The notes beneath the pieces are model-generated. The model was not told the origin of the DNA. It did not search any database and was given only the letters and a program-made list of their open reading frames with translations. Shown one piece after another: positions 1 through 26,771 of a DNA stretch of 64,000 bases. Position numbers and translations under genes: made by a program. The number at the start of each line of letters is the position of its first letter. Position 1 is the stretch's first letter. Source of the stretch: a virus; IMG/VR virus record IMGVR_UViG_3300028490_000395; one strand, 5' to 3'.

Positions 1-1686
1 CTATTTACCTTTCTTTACGATGCTCTTAATTTCTGAAAACAACTCTTTTGGTTTAACAGTTAAGTCTGTAACATCTACAACAACAGGATCTTTATTCTCC
101 ACACGCAACCCATTCTTTACGTCCTCAACATTCAAGTCCTTCTTTGACTCATTTAGCTCGTTTTGAAAATCAAGAATATTAGAGTTCTTTACTGAATTAG
201 CTAGATCAATAATATAAGTGTCACCTTTCCCAGAAGACATAGGTCTCCCAATTTGCTGAAAGAAGATAATTTTAGACGCTGTATCTCTTAAAAGAATAGC
301 TAGGTTTAGTTCAGGTAAATGTAACCCCTCATTAAACTTATCAACGGTATGAAGGATATTCGCACCGTGAGAGTTATCCTTGATATAAGAATCTAACTTT
401 ACAGATTGTTTCTTGCCTGAGATCTTAGAGTGAATAGAGTACGACCGAATATCATCGATATCATAAACATCTGAATCAATAAATGATTTATGAACATATT
501 TTCTAAGTCTATCAAGTTCTGAAATGTTGCTATAAAAAGCGATTGTTTTCTTAACAGTATTCGGGATATATGTCTTAATGATAGAGCCTAGACTTCCAAC
601 AGTATTTTCCCAAGAAGCAAGATCATCTAAATCTTTCATAAGCTTGTTTTTCTGTGTAGAAGACAATGACGACGAATCAACAAGATCTCTATGCTTGTCC
701 ATATCTTCAGAGATAGAATAAAGACCTTGGATAAACTTTGGTGCGATTAAATACCCTCTGTTAATAGCGTCAAACAAAGACATATCTCTTGCCATATTGT
801 TATCAAAAAACTCTCGGACATTAACACCGTCTTCTCTCTTTGGTGTAGCACTAAATCCTACAACTTTTGAGTTAGGATGCAATTCTAATACTCTGATAAC
901 ATTTTCTTTCCAACAGTCCGCTTCAATTCTATGAAACTCGTCAAAAAGAATCAGGTCATACTGCTCTTTATCTTCAGTAGAGTCCAAGCCGATATATGTA
1001 GAATAGTCAATATTGTCTGAGACTTCAACTTTAGAATGTCTAGACATTTGATCATTAAGCTCTGTACGAGGAGATACAACAAGAACACGCTTATTGTTAC
1101 GAACATACTCTAAAGAGAGAGCGATCATTAAACGCATCTTTCCTGTACCTGTTGGTTGAACAACACAAGCTTTGTCTTTTTTGTTAAGGATAGAGAGGAT
1201 GTTAAAGTATGTGTCTAAGTTAAATTTATAGAGATCAAACATTGTCTCAGGTAATACTTTTGACATTGGTAAAAGTAAGATTTGCTCAAGGTATTCAATA
1301 GATAAAAGAGAAATGGTACTTTCTGTTAAATCAAAGACTGCTTCAGTATCAAACCCTTTGAATGAAAATACTTTAAGTTGGTCAGGTCCAAACACTAGAT
1401 CCTTAGTGTCATCGAGAATAGAAGATAGATCATCTCCTGAAAGCTCTTGAAATTTAACTACAACAGATGTATCACCTAAAGTAAACCCAATATGAGAATC
1501 ATCTCTATTGTGCAAAGTTTTAAAGCCTCTCAACTTATGCATAGTTGATAAATAAAAGCCTAACGCCTCATCTCGATCTTTTTCAGACCCGAAATATTCT
1601 AGATCATTCTCAAAATAAGAGACAACTATTTTTAGATCTGTTTCTTCAACTAATCTTGATAATTCTGACATAACTTTCATTTTCAT
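1..1686 (-). CDS. SF2 (DEAD/DEAH-type) DNA/RNA helicase with ~170-aa N-terminal extension
   Basis: Motif I QPTGTGKM, motif II DEFH, motif III SAT and motif VI QQIGRPMS are all present. Stop codon sits at 1-3 and the ATG at 1684-1686, with AAAGGA upstream. Confidence 0.8.
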   Translation of the reverse strand: MKMKVMSELSRLVEETDLKIVVSYFENDLEYFGSEKDRDEALGFYLSTMHKLRGFKTLHNRDDSHIGFTLGDTSVVVKFQELSGDDLSSILDDTKDLVFGPDQLKVFSFKGFDTEAVFDLTESTISLLSIEYLEQILLLPMSKVLPETMFDLYKFNLDTYFNILSILNKKDKACVVQPTGTGKMRLMIALSLEYVRNNKRVLVVSPRTELNDQMSRHSKVEVSDNIDYSTYIGLDSTEDKEQYDLILFDEFHRIEADCWKENVIRVLELHPNSKVVGFSATPKREDGVNVREFFDNNMARDMSLFDAINRGYLIAPKFIQGLYSISEDMDKHRDLVDSSSLSSTQKNKLMKDLDDLASWENTVGSLGSIIKTYIPNTVKKTIAFYSNISELDRLRKYVHKSFIDSDVYDIDDIRSYSIHSKISGKKQSVKLDSYIKDNSHGANILHTVDKFNEGLHLPELNLAILLRDTASKIIFFQQIGRPMSSGKGDTYIIDLANSVKNSNILDFQNELNESKKDLNVEDVKNGLRVENKDPVVVDVTDLTVKPKELFSEIKSIVKKGK

Positions 1687-1875
1687 AATCTATCCTTTAA
1701 GTATATAGATTATACCGAAGACAAGCTAAAAGTTTATTGAATAATTATAGGTGAAATTATCTTTAATATATGACCGCTTAAGATATAATTTATCTTATCT
1801 ATGCTAGAATACTCTTAATCAAAAAATAAAAGAATACTTCTATTGAAGTGTAGATTTATTTACAGGAGAAAAATT

Positions 1876-2433
1876 ATGAATAAACAACCTCGAGTAGCTT
1901 TTTCAGCTGAACGAAATCAACCATTTACAAATGGACACTTTTATCTAAACTCAGAGATGCTAAGAGACAATGACGTGATCATTGTAGGCATCGGTTCAAC
2001 ACAGATTCAAGGAACTTCAAGAAACCCATTCTCACCAGAACAACGAAAAGAAATGTACTTTAAAGTTTTTGGTAAAACTAAAAAGATAAAATTTGTTTAT
2101 CTTCGAGATATTGGAGCTGTATATCCTGGAGAATGGCAAGACTATTGTCTTAAAAGAATCAAAGATTCAAGTTATCCTACTCCAACACATTACTACTGTG
2201 GATCAAAAACAGATGGATATTGGTTTGAAGGTGCAGAAAACCTAAATGGTGATCCTATTGAACTTGTTACTTTGAAAAGATACGACACACCTTTCATGCC
2301 AGGTACAAATATCAGAGCGTCAATTACAAATGATTCGGATGAGTGGGAAGAACATGTTCCTAAATGTCTGATTGAATACATTAAAGATAATTATCCAAAA
2401 GATCTTATGATTCAAGCTCACAGAGATCATTGA
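1876..2433 (+). CDS. nadM: NadM-type nicotinamide-nucleotide adenylyltransferase (HxGH nucleotidyltransferase)
   Basis: N-terminus ERNQPFTNGH...IGSTQ...RNPFSPEQR matches archaeal/bacterial NadM (GRMQPFHRGH...IGSAQ...RDPFT..ER). The track start at 1843 is TTG; ATG at 1876 follows AGGAG. Confidence 0.8.
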   Translation: MNKQPRVAFSAERNQPFTNGHFYLNSEMLRDNDVIIVGIGSTQIQGTSRNPFSPEQRKEMYFKVFGKTKKIKFVYLRDIGAVYPGEWQDYCLKRIKDSSYPTPTHYYCGSKTDGYWFEGAENLNGDPIELVTLKRYDTPFMPGTNIRASITNDSDEWEEHVPKCLIEYIKDNYPKDLMIQAHRDH

Positions 2434-2435
2434 TC

Positions 2436-2654
2436 ATGTGGGAATTTTATAGACGCGTTCTAAAATTACTCTATCCTGACATAGTTCTAATAGGGGATCG
2501 TGTTACAGTCAACAGTGGCAAAAAGGATGGGAAAGATTTTCTAGTAGTAGACATCTCAGTTATAAAGGGTGTCAAGAGTGCTAGGATAGAATTTTCAAAA
2601 GGGTATATGGAGTGGGTAAACTATAATTTAGTAAGCCTAGTAAAAGAAAAGTAA
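2436..2654 (+). CDS. hypothetical small protein, coupled to nadM stop
   Basis: ORF overlaps the nadM stop. Start could be TTG at 2430 or ATG at 2436. No recognizable motif. Confidence 0.4.
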   Translation: MWEFYRRVLKLLYPDIVLIGDRVTVNSGKKDGKDFLVVDISVIKGVKSARIEFSKGYMEWVNYNLVSLVKEK

Positions 2655-2754
2655 AAAGTGACCAAAACGTGATTTGTCCTAAAAAGCTGCGAAATTCAAG
2701 TAGTACAATAGATCTGTTCAATTGAATAGAATAATATGTACAAGGAGAACTAAT

Positions 2755-3348
2755 ATGTATAAGAATATACTTGTAGTCGTAGACTACCAAAGAGACTTCG
2801 TAAGTCCAGAAGGTGCACTTTATGTACCTGAAGCAGAAACAGTTGCCGCAAGGATTCAACAAGAGATAGACAATCCTAAGTACGATGCGATTGTATATAC
2901 AATGGATACACATATCAAAGAAGACTATGCTAGTTCAAAAGAAGTCAAGATCTTTCCTCTTCACTGTGAGTTCAACACAAAAGGGTGGGAATTCTTTATA
3001 ATCAGACCAAGAAGCAGAGAGGTTAGAATAACTGTAGAAGAAGGTGTTCTTGAAACGCCAAGAGATTTTTCTGTGGAGAATGAATTTGTCTTTATGAAAG
3101 ATGAGTTTAGTGTTTGGGAAGGAAATTCTCAATACGAAACATGGATCAGAGATAATGTTGAAAAAGAGGCTTCTGTAACGGTTGTCGGTGTTGCCACAAA
3201 TTATTGTGTGTTTCAGAATGCAATGGGATATGAAAAGCTTGGAATCTCAAGCGTTTCTGTCATTGGCGATGCAGTAAGAGGTATTCCAGATGATACCTAC
3301 GAAGCAAAAGTTATTGAGATGAAAGATCAAAATGTTCGCTTCCGCTAA
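2755..3348 (+). CDS. pncA: nicotinamidase (isochorismatase family)
   Basis: LVVVDYQRDF catalytic Asp region. Metal-binding D-x-H...PLHC aligns with the PncA D49/H51/H71 region. The catalytic Cys sits in VGVATNYCV. ATG at 2755 follows AAGGAGA. Confidence 0.85.
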   Translation: MYKNILVVVDYQRDFVSPEGALYVPEAETVAARIQQEIDNPKYDAIVYTMDTHIKEDYASSKEVKIFPLHCEFNTKGWEFFIIRPRSREVRITVEEGVLETPRDFSVENEFVFMKDEFSVWEGNSQYETWIRDNVEKEASVTVVGVATNYCVFQNAMGYEKLGISSVSVIGDAVRGIPDDTYEAKVIEMKDQNVRFR

Positions 3349-3967
3349 TTATTCAATCATAACGGACTTTGGTTGTCCGTTTATGTGTGCGTTCTGTATC
3401 ACAAACTCTCAAAACTCAAAAAAGAAGTTTACTTTTAATGAAGAAGTATTCTCTGATATATCAGAGAGTCTCTCTAAGGGGTCTTACAGGCGCATCTCAG
3501 TGTCAGGAGGAGGTGAGCCTCTCTTTGTACACAACAATGAGATTCAGGCATTCTATGACAGGCTATTTAAGTTTGGAAAAGAAAAAAACATACCGATACA
3601 TGTTCATACAAATATCGTTGCTCCAAACGCTTTAGCTAGGAAGTTTGATAAGGTGACTATTTCAATCAACGAAGAGAACTTTCTTAAAAAGTATTTTCTA
3701 TGGGAGGATGTCAAAGATAAAAGATTTGTGCATGTTTCAGATGGGTCAGATGTTACGCTGATCAAAGAGATGATCTTTAATCTAGATAAAGATTCTCAGC
3801 TAACTATAAAGCAAATGGATGGGGTTGACGCTTCATGCTTTGTAGATGTAATAAAAGAGTGCACTCTGGATCAAAGGGTTATGTTCCTCGCTGAAGGTGA
3901 TTATAACCTGTACTATGTACTAAATGAAAGAAAAGAATTTCATAAATTCAAGGATATAAGCTTTTAA
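3332..3967 (+). CDS. small radical-SAM enzyme, activase-like (PflA/NrdG/QueE-like fold)
   Basis: CPFMCAFC (CxxxCxxC) at residues 15-22 and a GGGEPLF motif. About 211 aa. Overlaps the pncA end by 17 nt. Confidence 0.65.
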   Translation: MFASANYSIITDFGCPFMCAFCITNSQNSKKKFTFNEEVFSDISESLSKGSYRRISVSGGGEPLFVHNNEIQAFYDRLFKFGKEKNIPIHVHTNIVAPNALARKFDKVTISINEENFLKKYFLWEDVKDKRFVHVSDGSDVTLIKEMIFNLDKDSQLTIKQMDGVDASCFVDVIKECTLDQRVMFLAEGDYNLYYVLNERKEFHKFKDISF

Positions 3968-4074
3968 TGTTCTTCTAAGTTTTATTAGCATATAATTGAT
4001 TATCAATAGTTGGGAAACTAGATAAAAATCCCAACTGGGATTTGATAGTGTCTCTCCTAAAAAAAGGATATACC

Positions 4075-4668
4075 GTGAAGAAAAAGTTAATAAACATCGA
4101 TTTCGATGGCCCTCTCTATGACTTACAGTCAGTTCAAAATGAATTTTTACTACAAGAAACAGGTGTTCTAGTTAAACCAGAAGATGTCCAAACATGGGAT
4201 TATTATATAGATAATCATCCAAGGATATTTGAAGTATGGTCTAATTTTGAACATTACTCAAAAGGGTCTCTAATCCAAGGTGCAAGAAAGTTTTTTGACG
4301 ATCTTATGAAGATACCTGGAATTACAATTGACGATGTTTGTATTCTAACTCATACCAGAGGGGATATGGATGATAAAAAGGATGAGCTAATTAGAAGATT
4401 ACTACCAGATCATAAAGTTGACATCTATCATGTTCATGCAAAAGACAAGCAAGATATAGTGGGGACTAATTTTATCGTGGATGACTACGATGACACTATT
4501 AAAAGATGCTCTGAAAATGGGGCAACGTGCTCATTGTTCGACGGTAATATATATCACTATTCAGAGAAGGGTATTGAAAACAGCTTAAACAATGTTACAA
4601 GAGCAATGTCTCATGACGATGTTATTCACTCTATTGAAGGGTTTTTAAAAGCTAAAGGTATTAAGTAA
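4075..4668 (+). CDS. HAD-superfamily 5'(3')-deoxyribonucleotidase-like phosphatase
   Basis: NIDFDGPLYDL matches the dNT motif VDMDGVLADF. FIVDDYDD matches LLIDDRPD. GTG at 4075 follows AAGGA; the track gives TTG at 4042. Confidence 0.7.
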   Translation: MKKKLINIDFDGPLYDLQSVQNEFLLQETGVLVKPEDVQTWDYYIDNHPRIFEVWSNFEHYSKGSLIQGARKFFDDLMKIPGITIDDVCILTHTRGDMDDKKDELIRRLLPDHKVDIYHVHAKDKQDIVGTNFIVDDYDDTIKRCSENGATCSLFDGNIYHYSEKGIENSLNNVTRAMSHDDVIHSIEGFLKAKGIK

Positions 4669-4713
4669 CTCCATTATAAAAAACAAAATTTAGCTATACT
4701 CTGTAAAAATATT

Positions 4714-6531
4714 ATGAGGGTATCTGCTATGTTTAGCTTTAAAAAATCAAATCCAACTCCAAGCTTGAAAGAACTGTTAAATTTTAAAGAAGTTGACAAG
4801 ATTTCATCCGTTAAATTTTCAAGTATGCCTCTTCTATCTGATAATAAACGACATTCTTTTATTATTCTTCAAATAAAAGAACGGGCAAATATAGACGATC
4901 AAATGGATGAGCAGCGTATTTTTTACAGAAAGTTAAAAAAAGAGATTGAAGGTAAAAAACATTTATCTACTTCCGTATCCCTCCAAACATTAAGAAAAGT
5001 AATCTATCCAAGATTTGAGAACTTTGAATCCGATCGTATAGAGATTCCTATCCATGAAGCATTATCAAAAGAGTTTCAAAAATCAATAAGTGATTGTCGA
5101 ACTAATTTTTTCACATATAAATCATTTATAGTTATTAGATTCTCAAAGTTAACAAAAAAAGCAACATATGAGTTTGCCGAGATAATTAAGCTTTTATCAG
5201 ACAGTAATTTACTTCAAGTTGATCAGAATGAAATAAGCAAGTTCTTTGACAATGACTATATTGAGATGGATCCTTTTCACAATATTATTGCAAGTGAAGG
5301 AGAGTCACACTATCAAATTCTTATAGATTCTATGTACAACGTTTTTACGGATTCCAAGGCAGAAAAGTTCAAAGATGATTTGATTGCAGCTTTTGGAAAT
5401 AATTTCATTACATATAACGGCGTTGTTCCAACAGTATCAGAGAACGGGGTGTGTTCTTTTCTCGATATAGATGACTCTTTTTCTATTATTGGGATAGCAG
5501 GAAGTGGAAAGACAACGCAAATGTCAAGTATTGTAAAAAGTTATCTAGATAAAGGCACTAGAACTTACATTATAGACAATTCTGAATCGTATGAACATTT
5601 TTCTAAATTCTTCAATTCAAAAAGATTTGATTTAAATAAAGACTTATCTATAAATATTCTTTCGCTAGTTTCAGAAGACAATGACAACAACGAGATTATA
5701 GATGCTTATATCGATGTTATTAATGCTTTAGTTGGAGGGATGCAACGGGCTGAAAGAAATCAAGTTAAAGAGGTCGTTAAACATGTTGTGTTTTCAAAGA
5801 AGAACAAAGGCACATTAAAAGATGTCGTTAAAGAGATGGGTAAAAACAATAAGCTTTACTCGTTAATGGGGAAGTTAAAGCCTTATATAGAGGAGTCTTC
5901 AGAATATTATAATGTTCTTAATTCACCATGTGAAATAAGCTTTGGAATGGAAGATCTTTTTGTATTAGATTGTTCTGAGTTATATAAAGATACAAAACTG
6001 AGAGAGGCTATCCTCATATCTACAATATTGATAATAAAAGAGATCGAAAAGAAAAAGAGTGGATCATTCTTACTAATTTTGGAAGGCGTGGATGAATATT
6101 TAAGAACCGACACGACTTCATTTATAAAAGATGTAAACAACAACTTTAAAAGTTTACACGGTAAATTAGGGGTTTCATTGGACTATTCTTTTCATAAAGA
6201 AAATTTAGATGCACTTCCATTATCTTCAATTATCATCTATCAAAGAGCCGGGAACTTTTTATCTCAGGGAATTTTAAACAATTCCATTCATCTAAACCTA
6301 GAGGTGAAAGAGTTTTTGCTTGCGCATGAAACAGAAAATTTTAATTCCTACAAAATGATCATGACAAAAGACAACAAAGTATTATTTAAGGGTCGGCCTA
6401 TTTTTGGATATGATCCGGGACTATTAACTGGTTCATATAGAGTAAAAAAAGAGATTGATTTGAAAATCAGATCAGGGTTATCAGAGGAAGAATCTTTAAA
6501 GAAAGTTATTAAAGAAAATTCTTTAGGTTAG
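4714..6531 (+). CDS. P-loop NTPase (Walker A IIGIAGSGKTT mid-protein), possibly HerA/VirB4-like
   Basis: Walker A at about residue 265 and a candidate Walker B LLILEGVDE. The family is not resolved. An alternative ATG at 4732 follows GAGGG. Confidence 0.55.
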   Translation: MRVSAMFSFKKSNPTPSLKELLNFKEVDKISSVKFSSMPLLSDNKRHSFIILQIKERANIDDQMDEQRIFYRKLKKEIEGKKHLSTSVSLQTLRKVIYPRFENFESDRIEIPIHEALSKEFQKSISDCRTNFFTYKSFIVIRFSKLTKKATYEFAEIIKLLSDSNLLQVDQNEISKFFDNDYIEMDPFHNIIASEGESHYQILIDSMYNVFTDSKAEKFKDDLIAAFGNNFITYNGVVPTVSENGVCSFLDIDDSFSIIGIAGSGKTTQMSSIVKSYLDKGTRTYIIDNSESYEHFSKFFNSKRFDLNKDLSINILSLVSEDNDNNEIIDAYIDVINALVGGMQRAERNQVKEVVKHVVFSKKNKGTLKDVVKEMGKNNKLYSLMGKLKPYIEESSEYYNVLNSPCEISFGMEDLFVLDCSELYKDTKLREAILISTILIIKEIEKKKSGSFLLILEGVDEYLRTDTTSFIKDVNNNFKSLHGKLGVSLDYSFHKENLDALPLSSIIIYQRAGNFLSQGILNNSIHLNLEVKEFLLAHETENFNSYKMIMTKDNKVLFKGRPIFGYDPGLLTGSYRVKKEIDLKIRSGLSEEESLKKVIKENSLG

Positions 6532-6571
6532 TGTAATATCTTCTATGTTATCCTTTTGAAAAGGTTGAACT

Positions 6572-6787
6572 ATGGAAAAGTTTTATAAAGTTAGAAATAA
6601 GCAAACAGGGCTCTTTTTCAATAAAGACTCATACAAAGAGAGTGAAAAGGGATCAACATTCAAGATCTTATCTGCAGCAGAAAGATTAAAGGGATATATA
6701 TCGGACTATCCTAATGTTAATGCGAACCATGATACTCTTGAAATCGTTGTTTTTGGACTAGTTGAGATTTCTGTGGTAGGAGACTGA
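6572..6787 (+). CDS. small protein (71 aa) coupled to the ATP-grasp gene
   Basis: Its stop lies 2 nt before the ATP-grasp ATG. Its C-terminus ...EISVVGD contains the SD site of the next gene. Confidence 0.5.
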   Translation: MEKFYKVRNKQTGLFFNKDSYKESEKGSTFKILSAAERLKGYISDYPNVNANHDTLEIVVFGLVEISVVGD

Positions 6788-6788
6788 T

Positions 6789-7997
6789 ATGGCTTCTTTT
6801 TTATACCAGTCTAGATTCCCATTAGGTTCAATACCTTTCGATGCTCCTACACCTCTTAAAACTCTCTACATAGACATTATTAGATCTATGGACATCTCAA
6901 CAACTGAAAGAAATGTGGATAAGGAAGATTGGATTGAATCTGTGATTCCATTAATTGAACTTTATAAGCAAAAAGATGTGCACACAATTTTAGTGCTAGA
7001 TATTTCTAACAATAACTTCAAACAGTTCTTGTCAAAGGAAAAAGAATATTCAAAAGAGTTTATCTCCGTTGGTCTGTATCTTAAAAAGAATTTTACTAAA
7101 GAAATAAAAGTTGACGGATTGACGATATCTGTTGTTTTCCCGAGAGAGCCTGATTATGTTGAGTATGAAGGGTATATGTATCCTATGCTTCAATCATTTA
7201 AGGAAAACTCAAATAGAGTAATTTATGGTCTTTTTTCTACATACGATGAAGAAGGAGTATCCTATGCTAAAAAGAAAATGGATGATCTAACAAAAGCAGG
7301 GTATAAGAATGAATACTCTGAGCATACTAAGATAATTTCAGAAGAAAAAGCTAAAGAGGCAAGAGCTTTCAGTGCAGCAAAGAACTATTATGAGCTTGGT
7401 TTAAAATGTAAAGAAAATTCAATAGAAGACAAGCTTTCTGAATTGTCTTATGCTCAAGATGAAGATATTAAGGACTATTTTATTAAAACTGTCAAGAAAA
7501 ATTGGGCGCTAAAGATCTCTATTAAAAAGAACTCAAGTAGATCAGACGTGTACAATGAGTTTGTAAACATTTTTGAGTACGCATGGTGTGAAACCTTAAG
7601 AAATAGTATCGACACAATCTTATTGCAAGACTATGCTGATATAACTTACGAATATAGATTTATAGTCTTAAACAGTGTTCTTGTTTGTGGGGCTGGGTGC
7701 ATAGAAGAATTTACACCCGTAGACAATATTGGTGGTAAATTTGATACACAACTGAAAGAGTATAGATACGATAAACAAATACTTGTAGATGTTGAGAAAG
7801 TAGAAGAACTAAAATCTTTTGCAGAGACTATAGTTGAAAAGATTACTCTTGAAGATGACTTTTTCCAAAACTATAGCTTAGACATTGGGATTATAAATGG
7901 AAGACCTGGGATTATTGAAATAAATCCTTACGCAAATGTGGGGATGTATGCCCTAGATTATTCAAATGTTTTAAGACATTTAACAAAGGGAGAATAA
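6789..7997 (+). CDS. ATP-grasp family ligase
   Basis: C-terminal half carries ATP-grasp signatures: a Lys-rich ISIKK, LLQDYADITYEYRFIV (E-x-R), and GIINGRPGIIEINPYAN (EIN motif). AGGAG lies 6 nt upstream of the ATG. Confidence 0.7.
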   Translation: MASFLYQSRFPLGSIPFDAPTPLKTLYIDIIRSMDISTTERNVDKEDWIESVIPLIELYKQKDVHTILVLDISNNNFKQFLSKEKEYSKEFISVGLYLKKNFTKEIKVDGLTISVVFPREPDYVEYEGYMYPMLQSFKENSNRVIYGLFSTYDEEGVSYAKKKMDDLTKAGYKNEYSEHTKIISEEKAKEARAFSAAKNYYELGLKCKENSIEDKLSELSYAQDEDIKDYFIKTVKKNWALKISIKKNSSRSDVYNEFVNIFEYAWCETLRNSIDTILLQDYADITYEYRFIVLNSVLVCGAGCIEEFTPVDNIGGKFDTQLKEYRYDKQILVDVEKVEELKSFAETIVEKITLEDDFFQNYSLDIGIINGRPGIIEINPYANVGMYALDYSNVLRHLTKGE

Positions 7998-8405
7998 ATG
8001 GGAAATTATACAAACTGTCCAAAGTGTAATGGGTTAGATATTTCACAAGAAGATTGTGGATATTCAAGTTTCAATGTTGGGACGATACGCTGCGTGTGTG
8101 GATTTGAGTTGAAGACAACGTGTAGCTGCTATCCTCAAGATGAGTTAATCTCATACTGGAATAAAACAGTTGCGGTCTTAAATGAGATTGCACAGCTTGA
8201 TCAAAAGAAGATGATAGAGCTTGCACAAGCGTTGTATTTAGAGGATGTAGTTATAGGGAACTCCACCTTAATGAATATAGTGGGACCGGCACCAAAGACT
8301 CTATGTAAGAGCTGCGCAGGGCATGGGACTATTGTAATTAAGCAAGGATTCCACAACCCACCACCAGAGACTTGTGAAAGCTGTAAAGGAACAGGGTATA
8401 TCTAA
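7998..8405 (+). CDS. Cys-rich zinc-finger protein with DnaJ-type CxxCxGxG repeats
   Basis: CPKCNG, CKSCAGHGT and CESCKGTGYI repeats. Its start codon abuts the stop of the ATP-grasp gene. Confidence 0.6.
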   Translation: MGNYTNCPKCNGLDISQEDCGYSSFNVGTIRCVCGFELKTTCSCYPQDELISYWNKTVAVLNEIAQLDQKKMIELAQALYLEDVVIGNSTLMNIVGPAPKTLCKSCAGHGTIVIKQGFHNPPPETCESCKGTGYI

Positions 8406-8425
8406 GTAGAAGACTCACCCAATTC

Positions 8426-8596
8426 TTACTCTTCAAGATCAGCTTTTCTTGAGGTAAGCACTTGATTCTCTAGAAAGTCTGTATCTCCTAAATCATTATC
8501 TGACAAATCAGTTATATCAAGGGCTTCGTTATCTGCATCTTCAATAGTGTCTGCCTCGATAATCAAGTATGTAGCAACTTCAATTAAGAATTTCAT
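8426..8596 (-). CDS. small acidic protein (56 aa), not in ORF track
   Basis: ATG preceded by AAGGATC. Sequence MKFLIEVATYLIIEADTIEDADNE.... Confidence 0.35.
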   Translation of the reverse strand: MKFLIEVATYLIIEADTIEDADNEALDITDLSDNDLGDTDFLENQVLTSRKADLEE

Positions 8597-8745
8597 GGTA
8601 GATCCTTTTCTTTTTTATGACATATTATACTTACAAAGGGCTGACTAAGTCCACGGACTATAGTCCTCAATTTTAAATAAAAGAGTTATTTTTTATCAGA
8701 AAACATACATACAACAATATCAATCCAAATTTTAAAGGAGTTATT

Positions 8746-8910
8746 ATGGCTAGTTTCAATAAACAACCATATTGGTATATAGAAGGAAGTCGTGTTTTTG
8801 AAGGCCCATGGTCAATGTCTCGCGATTTTGCTATTAAGAAGTTCGGGCGTGTTTTTGATTCATATTCTTCAGCTAACAATTATCACTTAGCAGGAATTAT
8901 GGCGGGTTAA
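8746..8910 (+). CDS. small protein (54 aa), not in ORF track
   Basis: AAGGAG lies 7 nt upstream of the ATG. It replaces the antisense track ORF 8673..8879. Confidence 0.5.
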   Translation: MASFNKQPYWYIEGSRVFEGPWSMSRDFAIKKFGRVFDSYSSANNYHLAGIMAG

Positions 8911-8948
8911 TTAACCTCAACAATATATTTTATAATAAAGGAAAAAAG

Positions 8949-9317
8949 ATGGAAATCTTAAACAAAATAAATGATCAAGGTGACAATCTTGCAATCGAAG
9001 TTAAATACAACAAAGGCGGTGTAAATTATTTCACTTATAAAACAGAAGAACGTGGTCTATACTTACATCTTTCACCAGTGAACATTAAATCATCTGGAGG
9101 AGGCATGCAAGTTCGAACGTCTCGCTTAATGGGTGGATTACAAACATCTGGTGCAAAACAGTTTCTAAAGCCTCTTGGTAGAAAATCTAAAAAGCAAGAA
9201 ACTTTTGTAGAAAATGTTGTTCTTGATTTTAACAATCGACTTTTTGAAGCTTGGAAAAACAATGATCGCGCAACACTTGTTTCTCTTGTCGATGAGATTA
9301 TTGATATCGTAAACTGA
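8949..9317 (+). CDS. hypothetical protein
   Basis: ORF follows AAAGGAAAAAAG. No motif recognised. Confidence 0.5.
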   Translation: MEILNKINDQGDNLAIEVKYNKGGVNYFTYKTEERGLYLHLSPVNIKSSGGGMQVRTSRLMGGLQTSGAKQFLKPLGRKSKKQETFVENVVLDFNNRLFEAWKNNDRATLVSLVDEIIDIVN

Positions 9318-9376
9318 ACATAAGTAAGAAGATCTTTCTTCTTACTATAAAGCTATAAAGCTTTTCTACTATCTTA

Positions 9377-9964
9377 TTAATTGAGGTCGGCCACAGTAAT
9401 ATCTTTAGACTTCATATAATCCGCTATATCTTTTCTGTTAAACTTGCTCCCAACATATTTTTTATCGATACTCTTAAACTCATCTCCATAATATCTTTTA
9501 TTTACCATAGAAAGAGCAAAATTGTTTGTGGTATTTTTACTATACATCCATTTTATAGACTTAACGAAGTCAATGTTGTCAGATCGATCTTCAGAGTCTT
9601 TCAGCGAATCCATTTCTGAATCTATATCTTGGATGAAAGAGTGATCAAATCTATCATTTAACGGTTGAATAACATAATTACCTAATCCATAAAGAATTCC
9701 ATATGTTGCTATTGCAGCAAAAAAAACACCGGGACTTATTGTGTCAGGGTTAATGCTCATATCCATTTGATTAATTTTAACTTGATCCTCGTCAGTCTCT
9801 CCCCGAGAAAAAAGTGTGGCCAGGATAATAAAAACTCCTCCCATAATCCACAACGTGTATGGAAGATAAAATCCTGTAAGGTTAAATACATAAATTGGCT
9901 CTAACGAATGACTAGATACAAAATCATTTACGAATTGTTCTATTTTTGACATGCTCAGAATCAA
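9377..9964 (-). CDS. membrane protein (2 TM) hypothetical
   Basis: Two hydrophobic helices. Abuts the upstream gene at 9965. Confidence 0.5.
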   Translation of the reverse strand: MILSMSKIEQFVNDFVSSHSLEPIYVFNLTGFYLPYTLWIMGGVFIILATLFSRGETDEDQVKINQMDMSINPDTISPGVFFAAIATYGILYGLGNYVIQPLNDRFDHSFIQDIDSEMDSLKDSEDRSDNIDFVKSIKWMYSKNTTNNFALSMVNKRYYGDEFKSIDKKYVGSKFNRKDIADYMKSKDITVADLN

Positions 9965-10342
9965 CTATGATAGATTGTAAGTAAAACTTACTTTTTTAGC
10001 AGAGACAGATAGCGCCTCTCTAAACCGAGCTTCTATCTCAGCCATATTGAATTCTCCTGAGCTATTTTGATAGGTTTTCCCATTCATTGAAACAGTTTGA
10101 ATAGGTGCAGAAAAAGAAACATCTGAAGAAATATAAAACTTAAGAATAAGGTTCTTAGAATGTGTTACAAACATTCCTGAGATTACAAACTGAGATAGAA
10201 TGTCTTCTATCTTTTCATTAAACTGTTCAATCGTTTCGATACCAGGGAGGCCAACGGTTGCAACATCTGTGCTTTCAGGGAAATAACCTCCTTTAACAGA
10301 AAATTGTAGGTCACAGTTACATTGAATTGTTTTTATAGACAT
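9965..10342 (-). CDS. hypothetical protein
   Basis: ORF forms a tandem pair with 9377..9964. Confidence 0.45.
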   Translation of the reverse strand: MSIKTIQCNCDLQFSVKGGYFPESTDVATVGLPGIETIEQFNEKIEDILSQFVISGMFVTHSKNLILKFYISSDVSFSAPIQTVSMNGKTYQNSSGEFNMAEIEARFREALSVSAKKVSFTYNLS

Positions 10343-10512
10343 AATATACCCTTTAATTTAATTGTATAAAGTATATGAGAAATCAACTGAAAGATAACTG
10401 AAAGAAGAGTAATTTAGAGGTGTTGTATAAGTAGAAACAGAGAATGAAAAATCATCCTTTGTTTATTTGATCAAAACGGAGCAGAAAAAATTCTGTCCGA
10501 AATCAACTTTGT

Positions 10513-11664: not shown

Positions 11665-11820
11665 ATGTTATTCTCCTCAGAATTTTTAGTTTAAAACGAT
11701 CTTACGAACGTTTTATTGAGTCTATTGTAGCTGATTTTTTAAAAAAAAAACTTAAACTTTGAATATATAAAACTTTGGGAGAAGAATTGTAACACCTGTT
11801 TTAGGTGTTTTAAGGAGAGG

Positions 11821-12498: not shown

Positions 12499-13461
12499 AT
12501 GAATACATTTTCAACAGATGAAAAAGAAACACTTTTTAGCCAATTCATAGTAAAGGCTAGTGAAGTAATGACACCCTCACAAAATACAGTAACAGATTCT
12601 CTTGATATAATTGATCGAGATCTTTACGACTATACTAAAGCTGCAGGACTTGAGAGTCTTTGCCTAGGCATCTCTGGGGGACTAGATTCAGCGGTAGTAG
12701 CGGCTATTGCCTCTAAAGTAACAAAAAGACTAGGGATTAAACTTATAGGGGTTTCTATCCCTCTTAGTTCGTCAGACAAACACAGGGAGCAAGCTGCATG
12801 GGTTGGAGAAACTTATTGTGACGCATTCTCAGAGATTAATGCTTGGGAAGAGATAATCCCTGAAGCAGAAACAACTCCACACGAGATGGTTGACTCTGTA
12901 ATCAATTCAACAGATAGAGTTCTTAAAATGGCGGGATTTGAACCGAATGACTTTGATCGAGCTATTCAACAAGCGAACATTAAAAGTAGACTTAGAATGA
13001 TTACTCTTTATGCTATTGCTAAAAATGCAAAAGGAATGGTTCTAGGGACAGGAAACTGGAGCGAAGACCATGCAATTTTCTTTTATACAATTGGTGGAGA
13101 TGGTCAAGTCGATTACTCTCCGATAAAAGGAATAGGTAAAGGCTTTGAGATGCCTGTGTTTGCAAAAGAGCTAGGGATTAGAGATGATATCATTGATCAA
13201 AAACCGAGTGACGGTCTAAAAGCTTCTGAGGCGGATACAGATGAAGCTCAGATAGGTGGGACCTATGAAGAAGTCGATGCAGTAATCAATGCTTACCTAG
13301 GAAACTTTGGAAAAGAGCTTACTTACTACTTCAGCATGATTGAAGATCTTGAAAAAGTTCAAAAGATCATTGGAAGACATAAGGCCAACAAATTCAAAGA
13401 GAATGGTGAAGTCTCAATAGAGAGGGGAGAGAACGGGCTACCAGAAGTCTTTATGGAATAA
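12499..13461 (+). CDS. nadE: NH3-dependent NAD+ synthetase
   Basis: PP-loop LGISGGLDSAVVAAIA. Length and layout are consistent with NadE. Confidence 0.8.
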   Translation: MNTFSTDEKETLFSQFIVKASEVMTPSQNTVTDSLDIIDRDLYDYTKAAGLESLCLGISGGLDSAVVAAIASKVTKRLGIKLIGVSIPLSSSDKHREQAAWVGETYCDAFSEINAWEEIIPEAETTPHEMVDSVINSTDRVLKMAGFEPNDFDRAIQQANIKSRLRMITLYAIAKNAKGMVLGTGNWSEDHAIFFYTIGGDGQVDYSPIKGIGKGFEMPVFAKELGIRDDIIDQKPSDGLKASEADTDEAQIGGTYEEVDAVINAYLGNFGKELTYYFSMIEDLEKVQKIIGRHKANKFKENGEVSIERGENGLPEVFME

Positions 13462-24725: not shown

Positions 24726-26771
24726 ATGGCAACGACAATCACAAACAATAAAGAGTACACAGTATCTGTAATGAACTTAAACAAATGGGCTAATGAGTAT
24801 TACACTCGTGATAATCCTTCAGTTTCAGATTCAGTTTACGATGAGCTGTACTTTTCTGTAAAAGCATTTGAAGATGCTAATCCTACTTTGTTATCAAAAA
24901 ATTCACCGACTCAAAGAGTTGGAGATAAATTACTAACAGGGTTTACAAAAGACTCTCATCTACAAAAGATGTATTCTCTAGATGACGTCTTTTTTGCTGA
25001 CGGTTCAGATCATGAAGAATTTCGTGAATGGGCTGATAAAATTAAAGAAGCTTACCCAAATGTAACCTTTTACGCAGAGCCTAAATATGACGGCTTGTCT
25101 CTCAACTTTCTTTATAAAGATGGAGAGCTTGTTAAAGCTATTACACGTGGAGATGGTGAAACTGGAGAAGATGTTACTGAAAATGCTCGTCATATTCATG
25201 GTGTCCCTCTTTCTATCCCATACACAGGTCTTGTTGAGATTCGTGGTGAAGTTACAATCTTTAAAAAAGATTTCCGTTCGGTAAACGATTATCGTCTTTC
25301 TATTAACAAAGATGAGTTTACAAATGAACGTGGTGCTGCTGCTGGATCTTTACGCTCATTTAACTCAGAAGCTGTTAAAGCTGCTCAGTTAAAATTTTCT
25401 CCTTATGCACTTGGCGAAAATGAGTTAGATCTAAACATGCAGTCTGAAGAGTATGACTGGATTATCTCACAAGGTTTTACCTCTTGGGGTACTCGAGAAC
25501 ACTCTGTTACACACGATACAGTCTCTGGAGTAATTCAGGACTACGATCGTATCATGACAACAAGAGATGAACATCCAATGTTACTAGATGGTGTTGTAAT
25601 CAAGATCGATGAAAAAGAAATCCAGCATGAGCTAGGTTTCACAAATAAGTTTCCTCGCTGGGCAATTGCTTATAAATTTCCGGCAGAAGAAGCTTTAACA
25701 ACGATTTTGAATATCATCTATCAAGTTGGTAAAACTGGTGCAATTACTCCTGTAGCTGTACTAGCTCCAACTGAGTTTGACGGTGTTACTGTTGAACGTG
25801 CAACACTTCACAACTTTCTTGAAATTGAACGCAAAGACATTCGCATTGGCGATATTGCTACAATCATTAGAAGTGGAGATGTTATCCCTAAAATTTTAGG
25901 TGTTAATCCTCTTGTTCGTGTAGGTACTGAAATTCCAGTAACTGAACCAACTAACTGCCCCTCTTGTAATGCTCCTACGGAACATAGAATTGGTGTAGAT
26001 GGCAACGAGTCAACTGTTACGTATTGCTCTAATCCACACTGTTCAGCTCGTGTTAAACAAAACATTGGCTATGCAATTGGTAAAAAAGCTTTAGATATGG
26101 TTGGTCTTGGTGATTCAGCTGCTGAAGAACTTGTTGAGAAAGAAATGGTCTTAGAAATTCCTGATTTATTCATGCTTTCAAAAGATGATCTTCTTAAACT
26201 TGACGGGTTTAAAGAACGTAAAGCTCAAAAAGCTTACGACGCTATTCAATCTGCTATTGGTACTGATCTTTATCGAGTTATCAATGCTTTAGATATTGAG
26301 CTTATTGGTGAACGTGCCTCTAAAAAACTTGCTATCAACAAATTCTTCGTAAGCCTAATTTTAGGTGAAGTTGAAGTTGAAGATAATCAATCATATGTTA
26401 TCTCTAAGCTAGAAGCGATAGAAGATATTGGTTCAGCTATGGCTAACAATATTTACGCATTCGTTTCTTCTGAAAGAGGTTTTATTAATCGTATGATTAG
26501 TTCAATCAATCCTAAGATGCCTGACTTTGACAAAGCTAAAGCAACTGGTGCTTTCACAGGTAAAACTGTTGTAATAACTGGAACCTTATCTGAGTCTCGA
26601 GGTGTCTTTGGTAAAATGGTTGAAGAAAATGGTGGTAAAGAAGGAAAGTCTGTTTCTAAAAAGACTGATTTTTTACTTGCTGGTGAAAAAGCTGGTTCAA
26701 AGCTTACTAAAGCAGAATCACTTGGAGTTACTGTTCTTAGTGAAGAAGAGTTTCTCGCTATGATCTCTTAA
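24726..26771 (+). CDS. ligA: NAD+-dependent DNA ligase
   Basis: KxDG adenylation motif EPKYDGLSL, Zn-finger CPSCNAPTE...CSNPHC, HhH region, and C-terminal BRCT GKTVVITGTL. Confidence 0.9.
   Translation: MATTITNNKEYTVSVMNLNKWANEYYTRDNPSVSDSVYDELYFSVKAFEDANPTLLSKNSPTQRVGDKLLTGFTKDSHLQKMYSLDDVFFADGSDHEEFREWADKIKEAYPNVTFYAEPKYDGLSLNFLYKDGELVKAITRGDGETGEDVTENARHIHGVPLSIPYTGLVEIRGEVTIFKKDFRSVNDYRLSINKDEFTNERGAAAGSLRSFNSEAVKAAQLKFSPYALGENELDLNMQSEEYDWIISQGFTSWGTREHSVTHDTVSGVIQDYDRIMTTRDEHPMLLDGVVIKIDEKEIQHELGFTNKFPRWAIAYKFPAEEALTTILNIIYQVGKTGAITPVAVLAPTEFDGVTVERATLHNFLEIERKDIRIGDIATIIRSGDVIPKILGVNPLVRVGTEIPVTEPTNCPSCNAPTEHRIGVDGNESTVTYCSNPHCSARVKQNIGYAIGKKALDMVGLGDSAAEELVEKEMVLEIPDLFMLSKDDLLKLDGFKERKAQKAYDAIQSAIGTDLYRVINALDIELIGERASKKLAINKFFVSLILGEVEVEDNQSYVISKLEAIEDIGSAMANNIYAFVSSERGFINRMISSINPKMPDFDKAKATGAFTGKTVVITGTLSESRGVFGKMVEENGGKEGKSVSKKTDFLLAGEKAGSKLTKAESLGVTVLSEEEFLAMIS

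What the first reader, a model, noticed from the sequence alone, without database searches (positions are those of the whole stretch)
1876..3348. NAD salvage/reconstitution genes clustered (nadM-pncA) with nadE and NAD-dependent ligA nearby
- Adjacent genes encode a NadM-type NMN/NaMN adenylyltransferase and a bona fide nicotinamidase (PncA, with its metal site and catalytic Cys visible).
- NadE lies 9 kb downstream, and the DNA ligase is NAD-dependent.
- Together these convert nicotinamide, the product of NAD-cleaving enzymes, back toward NAD.
- Only a phosphoribosyltransferase (PncB or NadV-like) is missing from the window.
- If this replicon is a phage, this would be a PncA-based variant of the NAD-reconstitution counter-defence strategy. 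If it is a reduced bacterium, it is simply its salvage route.
Basis: partly seen in the sequence, partly recalled or inferred. Interest (0 to 1): 0.55.

Follow-up and report, generated by a model that had tools for sequence, protein, structure and literature searches.

The report
Four-gene NAD salvage set on giant phage-like element
The two flagged genes are a nicotinamide deamidase and an NAD-building adenylyltransferase; with a neighbour just outside the window and a fourth gene 9 kb away they form a complete nicotinamide-to-NAD recycling route on a roughly 233 kb, probably jumbo-phage, element, a kind of cassette already described in jumbo phages.

Summary
Window 1876-2433 encodes a NadM/archaeal-type NMN/NaMN adenylyltransferase. 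Window 2755-3348 encodes a nicotinamidase (PncA) with catalytic triad and metal ligands intact. NadE is at 12499-13461 and an NAD-dependent LigA at 24726-26771.

The "missing" phosphoribosyltransferase exists. A PncB-type nicotinate phosphoribosyltransferase ends 373 bp before the window starts, on the same 233,044 bp metagenome contig. The element therefore carries the whole deamidating (Preiss-Handler) route: nicotinamide, nicotinate, NaMN, NaAD, NAD.

The four genes recur together, often as a contiguous pncB-nadM-pncA-nadE block, in about 20 related metagenome loci that share little else with this contig. A NadE-PncB-Nudix-NadM-PncA version occurs in the cultured jumbo phages Atu_ph07 (no NadE within reach) and Phosso, and in IMG/VR contigs of over 400 kb.

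The replicon is not a reduced bacterium. It is an ORFan-rich element with its own replisome and tRNAs and a Campylobacterota-type RecA. It is most likely a jumbo phage, but no capsid or terminase gene was seen in the 83 kb I could read.

Complete Preiss-Handler sets in jumbo phages were already reported (Li et al. 2024). A counter-defence role is plausible but untested. Verdict: new member of a known kind, modest interest.

The parts
1..1 (+). Marker for the window's left edge. The pncB gene (nicotinate phosphoribosyltransferase, 446 aa) lies just outside, at window coordinates -1713..-373 (locus L001:5533-6873; contig positions 26253-27593).
   Evidence: NCBIfam PRK09243.1-3 1.3e-51 (below its equivalog cut-off). 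PF17767 NAPRTase_N 34.3 bits against a cut-off of 32.6. Best solved structures are E. faecalis NAPRTase 2f7f (1.9e-20) and human NAPRT 4yub; no NAMPT hit.
1876..2433 (+). nadM: single-domain NadM/archaeal-type NMN/NaMN adenylyltransferase, 185 aa, with motifs T18-N-G-H21 and G143-T-N-I-R147. No Nudix domain.
   Evidence: The family profile hits NMNAT 1f9a at 1.1e-32 and PPAT at 1.8e-7. All 72 family members hit NCBIfam PRK01153.
2436..2654 (+). Small ORF (72 aa as called) between nadM and pncA, function unknown. It is absent from the relatives in which nadM and pncA are about 100 bp apart.
   Evidence: no Pfam or NCBIfam hit. In L005 the nadM-pncA gap is 99 bp with no ORF.
2755..3348 (+). pncA: nicotinamidase, 197 aa. 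Catalytic D10, K115 and C151; metal ligands D51, H53 and H70; GVATNYC motif.
3332..3967 (+). Radical-SAM protein (211 aa, CxxxCxxC at residues 15-22). It overlaps the pncA stop by 17 nt, so it is probably co-transcribed. Its role is unknown and it is not a conserved partner of the cassette.
   Evidence: PF04055 1.6e-6; phrog_17662 1e-17. Only a 42%-identical fragment occurs in the closest relative L052 and none elsewhere. Only weakly similar to the radical-SAM protein next to pncB in L005.
12499..13461 (+). nadE: NH3-dependent NAD synthetase, 320 aa, single domain with no glutaminase domain.
   Evidence: PF02540 7.9e-33; TIGR00552 111.8 bits against a cut-off of 63.65; phrog_11189 1.4e-33; the solved-structure hits are almost all NH3-dependent NAD synthetases.
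24726..26771 (+). ligA: NAD-dependent DNA ligase, 681 aa. It is an NAD consumer encoded by the element, and its by-product NMN is a direct NadM substrate.
   Evidence: PF01653 5.2e-71, PF03120 1.7e-27, BRCT 1.7e-10; phrog_3869 5.5e-172.

Best explanation
The element carries a self-sufficient four-enzyme deamidating (Preiss-Handler) NAD+ salvage cassette.

Proposed steps:
1. PncA hydrolyses nicotinamide to nicotinate plus NH3.
2. PncB couples nicotinate to PRPP to give NaMN.
3. The single-domain NadM adenylylates NaMN to NaAD. It can probably also turn NMN, the by-product of the element's own NAD-dependent ligase, directly into NAD+.
4. The NH3-dependent NadE amidates NaAD to NAD+.

The carrier is a giant mobile element of about 233-255 kb associated with Campylobacterota, most likely a jumbo phage. 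The cassette would keep the NAD+ pool up while the element replicates. That could serve its own NAD-dependent enzymes, or refill a pool emptied by host NADase defences, whose product is nicotinamide.

Shown here: gene identities, catalytic residues, completeness of the set, and conserved co-location across divergent elements.
Inferred: substrate preference of NadM, the order of steps 3 and 4, expression during infection, and any counter-defence benefit.
For: - Identities.
- Completeness: PncB ends 373 bp outside the window on the same contig.
- Conserved linkage within the lineage: in a 56%-identical relative (169,662 bp contig, L005), NadM, PncA and NadE are contiguous with PncB 6.4 kb upstream. 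These four are the only genes L005 shares with the 83 kb read here.
- Of the 20 JGI metagenome loci, 12 have pncA directly downstream of nadM. With L005 and this contig added, 8 of 10 loci with at least 5 kb of flanks carry all four genes. L054 and L059 show a contiguous pncB-nadM-pncA-nadE block.
- Independent lineage: jumbo phage Phosso carries NadE-PncB-Nudix-NadM-PncA within 6 kb. Atu_ph07 carries PncB, Nudix, NadM and PncA. At least 7 IMG/VR contigs (up to 465 kb) carry all five genes.
- Phage affinity of the replicon: it has its own DnaE, GyrA/B, LigA, SSB, PhoH, two Gmk genes and 6 tRNAs, and most ORFs have no family hit.
- Adjacent genes 45731-47053 and 47506-48054 belong to phrog_2087 and phrog_1383. 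These families are found in 36 and 277 phage records but in 0 and 4 of 72,556 plasmids.
- Literature: 174 of 668 gut jumbo phages encode a complete salvage or Preiss-Handler route (PMC11662467). Jumbo phage PA5oct up-regulates the host pncA-pncB1-nadE operon during infection (PMC7318152).
Against: - No capsid, portal, terminase or tail gene was recognised in contig positions 17,967-100,805 or in 7 x 20 kb of relatives' flanks.
- The NadM lineage is absent from IMG/VR, although its contigs come from JGI metagenomes.
- Plasmid-like genes occur: a TraC/VirB4-like ATPase and ParA here, and Rep3 in L005.
- NadM, PncA and PncB all score below the curated NCBIfam equivalog cut-offs, so they are divergent members.
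- NadM specificity for NaMN is unproven.
- In this window the block is broken up: a helicase on the opposite strand separates pncB from nadM, and 9 kb separates pncA from nadE, so co-regulation is not evident.
- No ADP-ribose-recycling gene (Nudix, Adps) was found in the 83 kb.
- No experiment links any PncA-based phage route to defence evasion.
Confidence: 0.72

Rival explanations
1. A dedicated counter-defence, that is, a fourth NAD-reconstitution pathway. On this view the cassette was selected specifically because host TIR, SIR2, DSR or SEFIR-type NADases release nicotinamide, and its main benefit is escape from abortive infection rather than general supply.
For: Nicotinamide, the entry substrate defined by PncA, is the product of NADase effectors. 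NARP1, NARP2 and NARP3 show that phages do rebuild NAD+ to beat such systems (bioRxiv 10.1101/2024.02.11.579819; PMC13464706). The cassette moves as a unit between otherwise unrelated genomic contexts, as anti-defence loci often do.
Against: There is no experimental support. Four ATP- and PRPP-consuming steps are slower and costlier than the two-step NARP2. No ADPR-salvage partner is present here. The element also encodes an NAD consumer (LigA), which by itself explains a supply function. Host defence content is unknown.
Confidence: 0.35
2. The enzymes are the same but steps 3 and 4 run in the Francisella-type order (Route II). NadE acts as an NMN synthetase (NaMN to NMN) and NadM as a strict NMN adenylyltransferase (NMN to NAD).
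For: NadM-family enzymes are typically NMN-preferring (established knowledge; Sorci et al. 2009, cited in PMC7824862). The F. tularensis NadE structure 3fiu is among the solved-structure hits, at an E-value (3.1e-15) similar to classical NadE enzymes.
Against: Archaea use NadM for NaMN in the classical order (established knowledge). Nothing in the sequence singles out the Francisella type; the best solved-structure hits are ordinary NH3-dependent NaAD synthetases.
Confidence: 0.2
3. The carrier is a megaplasmid or other non-viral extrachromosomal element of Campylobacterota, and the cassette is ordinary cargo that supplements host NAD metabolism.
For: No virion gene was seen in 83 kb. The window carries a TraC/VirB4-like ATPase and ParA, and L005 carries a Rep3 initiator. 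There are many envelope and transport proteins. The lineage is missing from IMG/VR. RecA is 70-73% identical to host-type RecA.
Against: The phrog_2087 and phrog_1383 families are nearly exclusive to large virulent phages. The element has PhoH, a tRNA cluster and its own replisome. Relatives carry ThyX, dCMP deaminase, RNA ligase and PNK-type RNA repair. The ORFan fraction is very high. The closest cultured carriers of the nadM-pncA pair are jumbo phages.
Confidence: 0.22
4. A fragment of a reduced bacterial genome, in which these genes are simply the cell's own salvage route.
For: Cellular-type RecA, FtsZ, GyrA/B, DnaE, LigA, outer-membrane proteins and low G+C.
Against: No ribosomal protein, rRNA, RNA polymerase or translation factor was found in 83 kb, or among the families listed for 140 kb of relatives' flanks (that list shows 25 of 42 families). 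Most ORFs have no family hit. Many divergent relatives co-occur in single samples as top-ranked contigs of 100-431 kb.
Confidence: 0.03

Closest known systems
'NAD-jumbo phages' with a Preiss-Handler gene cluster (pncB-nadD-nadE, e.g. Kuafu_71; Li et al. 2024, Microbiome, PMC11662467)
   Same: A replicon over 200 kb that encodes every step from nicotinate to NAD+, with the genes physically clustered. NAD-consuming enzymes such as LigA are on the same genome.
   Different: The adenylyltransferase here is NadM/archaeal-type rather than NadD. A nicotinamidase is part of the conserved block, so the entry substrate is nicotinamide. The host lineage is Campylobacterota rather than gut Bacteroidota. 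The viral nature of this contig is not proven.
NadE-PncB-Nudix-NadM-PncA cluster of Sinorhizobium phage Phosso (PV764938) and Agrobacterium phage Atu_ph07 (NC_042013, gp242 and gp238-gp236)
   Same: The same nadM-then-pncA order and orientation, the same PncA catalytic and metal residues, and PncB a few kb away (plus NadE in Phosso).
   Different: Only 26-34% identity. Those phages carry a separate Nudix (ADP-ribose pyrophosphatase) gene directly upstream of nadM, which is absent from the 83 kb read here. In Atu_ph07 the PncA homologue is annotated 'hypothetical' and NadM 'cytidyltransferase', and no NadE lies within reach.
NARP2 (Nampt + Nmnat; KVP40 NadV/NatV) and NARP1/NARP3 phage NAD+ reconstitution pathways
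   Same: An element-encoded route that rebuilds NAD+ starting from nicotinamide. It uses a NadM-family adenylyltransferase, as NatV does.
   Different: No Nampt, Adps/Namat, PnuC or NadR is present. The route is deamidating (through nicotinate, NaMN and NaAD) and needs four enzymes. No anti-defence activity has been demonstrated.
Bacterial pncA-pncB1-nadE salvage operon (P. aeruginosa PA4918-4920)
   Same: The same chemistry and the same habit of clustering pncA, pncB and nadE. That host operon is the most strongly induced during jumbo phage PA5oct infection (PMC7318152).
   Different: It is chromosomal, relies on the housekeeping NadD and is regulated by an ADPR-responsive repressor. Here the adenylyltransferase is included, so the cassette is host-independent.

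Membership tests
Nicotinamidase PncA (isochorismatase-like cysteine hydrolase) | Isochorismatase-like domain above the Pfam gathering score | tested here: met
   PF00857, 51.3 bits against a cut-off of 27, covering residues 5-192.
Nicotinamidase PncA (isochorismatase-like cysteine hydrolase) | Catalytic triad Asp-Lys-Cys | tested here: met
   D10, K115 and C151 align with D10, K94 and C133 of P. horikoshii PncA and are invariant in four homologues.
Nicotinamidase PncA (isochorismatase-like cysteine hydrolase) | Metal site (Asp-x-His plus a downstream His), which separates nicotinamidases from other isochorismatase-like hydrolases | tested here: met
   D51, H53 and H70 align with D52, H54 and H71 and are invariant. 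The profile hits nicotinamidases at 6e-23 to 5e-13, and chains not named as nicotinamidases (3irv, 3hb7, 3eef) at 2e-6 or weaker.
Nicotinamidase PncA (isochorismatase-like cysteine hydrolase) | Reaches the NCBIfam equivalog score (PRK11609, bifunctional nicotinamidase/pyrazinamidase) | tested here: not met
   37.9 bits against a cut-off of 174. It is a divergent member and not the E. coli-type equivalog.
Nicotinamidase PncA (isochorismatase-like cysteine hydrolase) | Hydrolyses nicotinamide to nicotinate | not testable with these tools
   Needs an enzyme assay.
NadM / archaeal-type NMN(NaMN) adenylyltransferase | (H/T)xGH nucleotidyltransferase motif | tested here: met
   T18-N-G-H21. Relatives have TNGH, HIGH or HKGH.
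NadM / archaeal-type NMN(NaMN) adenylyltransferase | C-terminal SxTxxR motif | tested here: inconclusive
   G143-T-N-I-R147. The Thr and Arg are kept and align with SGTEIR of 1f9a, but the first Ser is replaced by Gly. Relatives have SGTLVR or SATEIR.
NadM / archaeal-type NMN(NaMN) adenylyltransferase | Closer to NMNAT than to other HIGH-motif transferases (PPAT, GCT, NadD, citrate-lyase ligase) | tested here: met
   Family profile: NMNAT 1f9a 1.1e-32, NadM-Nudix 2qjo 3.3e-23, PPAT 1.8e-7, GCT 2e-3, NadD 3e-3. 72 of 72 members hit PRK01153.
NadM / archaeal-type NMN(NaMN) adenylyltransferase | Reaches the curated NCBIfam score (NF002243 / TIGR01527) | tested here: not met
   51.7 bits against 127, and 48.9 against 181.2. 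The strong part of the single-sequence match is the N-terminal 60-70 residues.
NadM / archaeal-type NMN(NaMN) adenylyltransferase | Accepts NaMN and/or NMN | not testable with these tools
   Inferred only from the conserved operon context with PncB and NadE.
PncB nicotinate phosphoribosyltransferase | NAPRTase N-terminal domain and catalytic region, and not NAMPT | tested here: met
   PF17767, 34.3 bits against a cut-off of 32.6. Ten NCBIfam NAPRTase models hit, the best at 1.3e-51. Solved-structure hits are 2f7f and 4yub (NAPRTases); no NAMPT.
PncB nicotinate phosphoribosyltransferase | Reaches an NCBIfam equivalog score | tested here: not met
   175.7 bits against a cut-off of 503 for PRK09243.1-3.
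NadE, NH3-dependent NAD synthetase | NAD_synthase domain above curated cut-offs, with no glutaminase domain | tested here: met
   PF02540, 114 bits against 21. TIGR00552, 111.8 against 63.65. 320 aa with a single domain.
NAD-jumbo phage (Li et al. 2024) | All genes of at least one NAD+ synthesis route are present | tested here: met
   PncA, PncB, NadM and NadE lie within 15.2 kb on one contig.
NAD-jumbo phage (Li et al. 2024) | Genome over 200 kb | tested here: met
   The contig is 233,044 bp. A twin contig of 254,785 bp exists in JGI.
NAD-jumbo phage (Li et al. 2024) | The replicon is a phage (virion and packaging genes present) | tested here: inconclusive
   Phage-restricted families phrog_2087 and phrog_1383 are present. 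No capsid, portal or terminase gene was found in the 83 kb accessible, and the lineage is not in IMG/VR.
NARP1, NARP2 and NARP3 | Adps + Namat, Nampt + Nmnat, or PnuC + NadR | tested here: not met
   No such families appear among the precomputed Pfam hits for all genes called in contig positions 17,967-100,805. The only phosphoribosyltransferase is of NAPRTase type.

The most novel reading that the evidence does not exclude
The contiguous pncB-nadM-pncA-nadE block is a mobile, host-independent 'deamidating NAD+ reconstitution pathway'. It would be a fourth NARP type, exchanged among giant phages, including a so-far uncatalogued lineage of 100-430 kb Campylobacterota elements that viral-detection pipelines have missed. 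It would protect them from nicotinamide-releasing NADase immunity.
Probability: 0.3. Interest if true: 0.55.

Novelty: new member of a known kind. Interest (0 to 1): 0.3.

Why it matters
NAD+ depletion is a widespread bacterial anti-phage strategy. Three phage NAD-rebuilding routes (NARP1, NARP2 and NARP3) have been demonstrated, and none is deamidating.

This locus and its roughly 20 relatives give clean, compact four-gene versions of a Preiss-Handler cassette that could be tested directly as a fourth route.

The work also yields practical annotation gains:
- PHROG family 19305, currently 'unknown function', is a nicotinamidase family.
- Atu_ph07 gp236 ('hypothetical') is a nicotinamidase, and gp237 ('cytidyltransferase') is a NadM-type adenylyltransferase.

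It also flags a lineage of very large Campylobacterota-associated elements that is absent from IMG/VR.

The concept itself, jumbo phages carrying complete NAD salvage, is already published, so the gain is incremental.

Tried and rejected
- Single-sequence AlphaFold2 of NadM gave mean pLDDT 35 and was unusable, so no fold search was run. The second structure job was not used, because only two homologues were allowed into an alignment.
- Walking the contig: a concatenated PhoH + DUF4139 query, meant to recover their own protein ids, returned only 44-47%-identical PhoH homologues and no self hits. The contig beyond positions 17,967-100,805 therefore stayed unread.
- DNA-level search of window 1-12,000 against phage records gave no match.
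- Close-relative scans of IMG/VR with NadM and PncA, and a family-alignment scan with NadM, found nothing.
- Tested whether the radical-SAM and HAD-like genes next to pncA are conserved partners of the cassette. They are not, apart from a fragment in L052.
- Looked for a Nudix partner, as in Atu_ph07 and Phosso, by motif and by tblastn. None was found in 83 kb.
- Tried to tell classical NadE from the Francisella NMN-synthetase type by solved-structure hits. They were not discriminating.
- Screened large ORFans by tblastn and PHROGs for virion genes. The only hits were phrog_2087, phrog_1383 and an S49 peptidase matching 'head maturation protease'. That peptidase carries an N-terminal membrane helix like cellular SppA.
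- Considered PPAT, GCT and citrate-lyase ligase for the 1876 gene. All were rejected on profile scores; JGI had named the homologue 'citrate lyase synthetase'.
Full report
**What is at the coordinates.** One is 1876-2433 (185 aa; AGGAG 8 nt upstream of the ATG). The other is 2755-3348 (197 aa). A 72-aa ORF lies between them, and a radical-SAM gene overlaps the second stop codon.

**The 1876 gene.**
- It hits only NMN-adenylyltransferase models at meaningful E-values (NCBIfam PRK01153 7.6e-14, TIGR01527 5e-13, several NadM-Nudix models). All are below their curated cut-offs, and the strong part of the match is the N-terminal 60-70 residues.
- As a single sequence it matches M. jannaschii NMNAT (1f9a) over nearly its full length at 1.1e-7.
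- An exhaustive HMMER search found 434 cluster representatives of this family.
- A profile of 72 of them hits 1f9a at 1.1e-32 and the bifunctional NadM-Nudix enzymes at 3.3e-23 and 1.4e-20. PPAT reaches only 1.8e-7, glycerol-3-phosphate cytidylyltransferase 2e-3 and NadD 3e-3.
- All 72 members match the NMNAT model PRK01153.
- The T18-N-G-H21 motif and a G-T-N-I-R147 version of the SxTxxR motif are present.
- It is therefore a divergent, single-domain NadM-type adenylyltransferase, not a PPAT or GCT.

**The 2755 gene.**
- It passes the Pfam Isochorismatase threshold (51.3 bits against 27).
- Its best solved relatives are nicotinamidases: P. horikoshii PncA 8.9e-15, yeast Pnc1, Leishmania 3r2j and M. 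tuberculosis PncA.
- With a four-sequence profile the gap widens. Nicotinamidases score 6e-23 to 5e-13, and chains not named as nicotinamidases (3irv, 3hb7, 3eef) 2e-6 or weaker.
- D10, K115 and C151 (catalytic triad) and D51, H53 and H70 (metal ligands) align with the P. horikoshii residues. They are invariant in the homologues from a related contig and from two cultured phages.
- It falls short of the E. coli-type NCBIfam equivalog score, so it is a divergent nicotinamidase.
- PHROGs lists its family (phrog_19305, 1.8e-27) as 'unknown function'.

**The rest of the pathway.**
- NadE at 12499-13461 is a single-domain, NH3-dependent NAD synthetase above curated cut-offs.
- The ligase at 24726-26771 is NAD-dependent (PF01653 5.2e-71).
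- The window comes from ENA metagenome contig ERZ27262695 k141_827129 (233,044 bp). Window position 1 corresponds to about contig position 27,967.
- Reading 10 kb upstream shows a 446-aa gene that ends 373 bp before the window. It hits ten NCBIfam nicotinate phosphoribosyltransferase models (best 1.3e-51). It passes PF17767 and matches the NAPRTase structures 2f7f and 4yub, but no NAMPT.
- So the 'missing' phosphoribosyltransferase is present and is PncB-type. The element has a complete deamidating route from nicotinamide to NAD+ within 15.2 kb.
- The gene order is pncB (+), two small ORFs, a helicase (-), nadM (+), orf72 (+), pncA (+), the radical-SAM gene (+), about 8.5 kb of other genes, then nadE (+).

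**Is the grouping meaningful?** Yes.
- The only close homologue in the word-indexed database (56% identity) lies on a 169,662 bp JGI contig. There NadM, PncA and NadE are contiguous and PncB is 6.4 kb upstream.
- Between that 20 kb locus and the 83 kb I could read here, these four genes are the only ones shared.
- A JGI metagenome scan found 20 further loci, on contigs up to 431 kb and all from one sample series (Ga0256824-43). pncA follows nadM directly in 12 of them.
- With L005 and this contig added, all four genes are present in 8 of 10 loci with at least 5 kb on both sides.
- L054 and L059 show an uninterrupted pncB-nadM-pncA-nadE block.
- These loci share only a handful of other genes with this contig.
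- The arrangement in the window looks like a broken-up version of that block. The closest relative (L052, 68% NadM identity) has nadM, pncA, a radical-SAM fragment, one ORF and nadE within 4.2 kb.

**The same module in bona fide phages.**
- tblastn against deposited phages places the best matches for both NadM and PncA side by side, in the same order, in Agrobacterium phage Atu_ph07 (490 kb) and Sinorhizobium phage Phosso (469 kb).
- Phosso has NadE, PncB, Nudix, NadM and PncA within 6 kb. Atu_ph07 has PncB (gp242), Nudix (gp238), NadM (gp237, annotated 'cytidyltransferase') and PncA (gp236, annotated 'hypothetical').
- The Atu_ph07 paper mentions PncB, NadR and PnuC but not this pair (PMC6102473).
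- In IMG/VR, 43 viral contigs encode a PncA relative. Ten carry the NadM-type neighbour with PncB and Nudix, seven of those also carry NadE, and about twenty others pair PncA with NadE.

**What is the replicon?** It is not a reduced bacterium.
- In contig positions 17,967-100,805 there is no ribosomal, RNA-polymerase or translation-factor gene, and most ORFs have no family hit.
- It encodes its own DnaE, GyrB/GyrA, LigA, SSB, DnaQ-like exonuclease, helicases, PhoH, two guanylate kinases, RecA, FtsZ, UvrD and six tRNAs. It also has many envelope proteins.
- RecA is 70-73% identical to Arcobacter, Sulfurimonas, Sulfurovum and Campylobacter RecA. The only GTDB hit for the NadM lineage is a Campylobacterota MAG. 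The host is therefore very probably a member of the Campylobacterota.
- For a phage: two adjacent genes (45731-47053 and 47506-48054) are full-length members of phrog_2087 and phrog_1383 ('virion structural protein'). These families occur in 36 and 277 phage records (RaK2-like and other jumbo phages, Ackermannviridae, ICP1), but in 0 and 4 of 72,556 plasmids.
- Also for a phage: relatives' flanks carry ThyX, dCMP deaminase, RNA ligase and PNK-type RNA-repair genes.
- Against a phage: no capsid, portal, terminase or tail gene was recognised in any sequence I could reach. A TraC/VirB4-like ATPase, ParA and (in L005) Rep3 are present. The lineage is also absent from IMG/VR.
- My estimates are about 0.75 for a jumbo phage, about 0.22 for another giant extrachromosomal element, and about 0.03 for a cell.

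**How it most likely works.**
1. PncA deamidates nicotinamide to nicotinate.
2. PncB makes NaMN from nicotinate and PRPP.
3. NadM adenylylates NaMN to NaAD.
4. NadE amidates NaAD to NAD+ using NH3.

- Because NadM enzymes also take NMN, the NMN released by the element's own LigA could be re-adenylylated in one step (inference).
- Steps 3 and 4 could run in the Francisella order (NaMN to NMN by NadE, then NMN to NAD by NadM). Solved-structure hits do not discriminate between the two orders.
- The identities, the residues and the conserved linkage are shown. Substrate preferences, expression and physiological benefit are inferred.
- The benefit could be supply for replication, as proposed for 'NAD-jumbo phages'. 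It could instead be refilling a pool emptied by NADase defences.
- Host pncA-pncB1-nadE induction by jumbo phage PA5oct shows that this route matters during jumbo-phage infection (PMC7318152).

**Comparison with what is known.**
- Li et al. 2024 (PMC11662467) reported that 174 of 668 gut jumbo phages encode a complete salvage or Preiss-Handler route. These include clustered pncB-nadD-nadE, and the paper mentions phage pncA.
- Iyer et al. 2021 described Nampt/NadM-type systems in jumbo phages.
- The experimentally shown counter-defence routes are NARP1 (Adps + Namat), NARP2 (Nampt + Nmnat) and NARP3 (PnuC + NadR). The NARP1/NARP2 preprint mentions neither PncA nor the Preiss-Handler route; the NARP3 paper never mentions PncA and names Preiss-Handler only in a cited title. 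No 'NARP4' of this kind exists in the searchable literature.
- This locus is therefore a new member of a known kind. Its particular features are a NadM rather than NadD adenylyltransferase, a nicotinamidase as a fixed part of the block, a Campylobacterota-associated lineage of giant elements, and no Nudix partner.

**Verdict.** The missing gene was found just outside the window. The 'reduced bacterium' reading is rejected. Novelty is limited and the counter-defence role is untested. Interest 0.3.

Noticed in passing
window 45731-47053 (-) and 47506-48054 (+): Adjacent divergent genes belong to phrog_2087 (a membrane protein of RaK2-like and other jumbo phages, 8.3e-30) and phrog_1383 ('virion structural protein', 1.2e-26). 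Both families are almost absent from 72,556 plasmids. They are the best evidence in the window that the replicon is a phage.
   Followed up: partly
window 3332-8405: Five recognisable genes lie between pncA and nadE: a radical-SAM protein (phrog_17662) overlapping the pncA stop by 17 nt, a HAD/NT5C-like protein, a TraC/VirB4/HerA-like P-loop ATPase (605 aa), an ATP-grasp of the R2K clade and a Zn-ribbon protein. Apart from a radical-SAM fragment they are missing from the closest relative L052. Function and any link to NAD are unknown.
   Followed up: partly
window 53079-54833 and L004:11084-12925: Two large paralogous ORFans share a C-terminal Cys-rich domain (…CCQ.L.S.G..CV.YAA…). Its only deposited-phage homologues are hypothetical proteins of Microcystis phages MaMV-DC and MaMV-DH01.
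   Followed up: no
L004:13042-15393 (contig positions 93,265-95,616, downstream of the window): A cellular-type RecA, 70-73% identical to Arcobacter, Sulfurimonas and Campylobacter RecA, lies next to a full FtsZ (Tubulin + FtsZ_C domains), followed by a UvrD-type helicase. This is an unusual load of host-like genes for a mobile element.
   Followed up: partly
window 10513-11664 (-), 17782-23881, 34578-35246, 38498-39523, 57743-58279: The element encodes many envelope proteins: a FadL-like and an OmpW-like outer-membrane protein, a Na+/H+ antiporter, an MscS channel, a YqiJ/NfeD plus flotillin pair, a BI-1-like protein and a membrane-anchored S49 peptidase. The peptidase also matches the PHROG family 'head maturation protease' (5.3e-34).
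   Followed up: no
window 44728-45620: A cluster of six tRNA genes: Gly-TCC twice, Gly-GCC, Met, Trp, and one with an aberrant two-base anticodon call.
   Followed up: no
window 41579-42172 (-) and 60983-61528 (+): Two guanylate-kinase paralogues. The first matches only the N-terminal part of the Guanylate_kin profile.
   Followed up: no
L052-L071 (JGI Ga0256824-Ga0256843 contigs, up to 431,381 bp) and L005: These loci form a diverse lineage of large contigs, often among the largest in their assemblies. They share the NAD cassette but few other genes with this contig, and none is in IMG/VR. Their flanks carry RNA ligase and PNK-type RNA repair, ThyX, dCMP deaminase, Hsp70, flagellin and YadA-head proteins.
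   Followed up: partly
L007:12620-13228 (Atu_ph07 gp236), L007:11989-12615 (gp237), L008:12599-13246 (Phosso): Deposited annotations ('hypothetical protein', 'cytidyltransferase', 'hydrolase') can be upgraded to nicotinamidase and NadM-type NMN/NaMN adenylyltransferase. PHROG family 19305 likewise.
   Followed up: yes
window 56186-56770: The SSB has a long glutamine-rich, near-repetitive C-terminal tail (QQQQQQAQQPQQQQ…). An overlapping 156-aa ORF in another frame is probably spurious.
   Followed up: no
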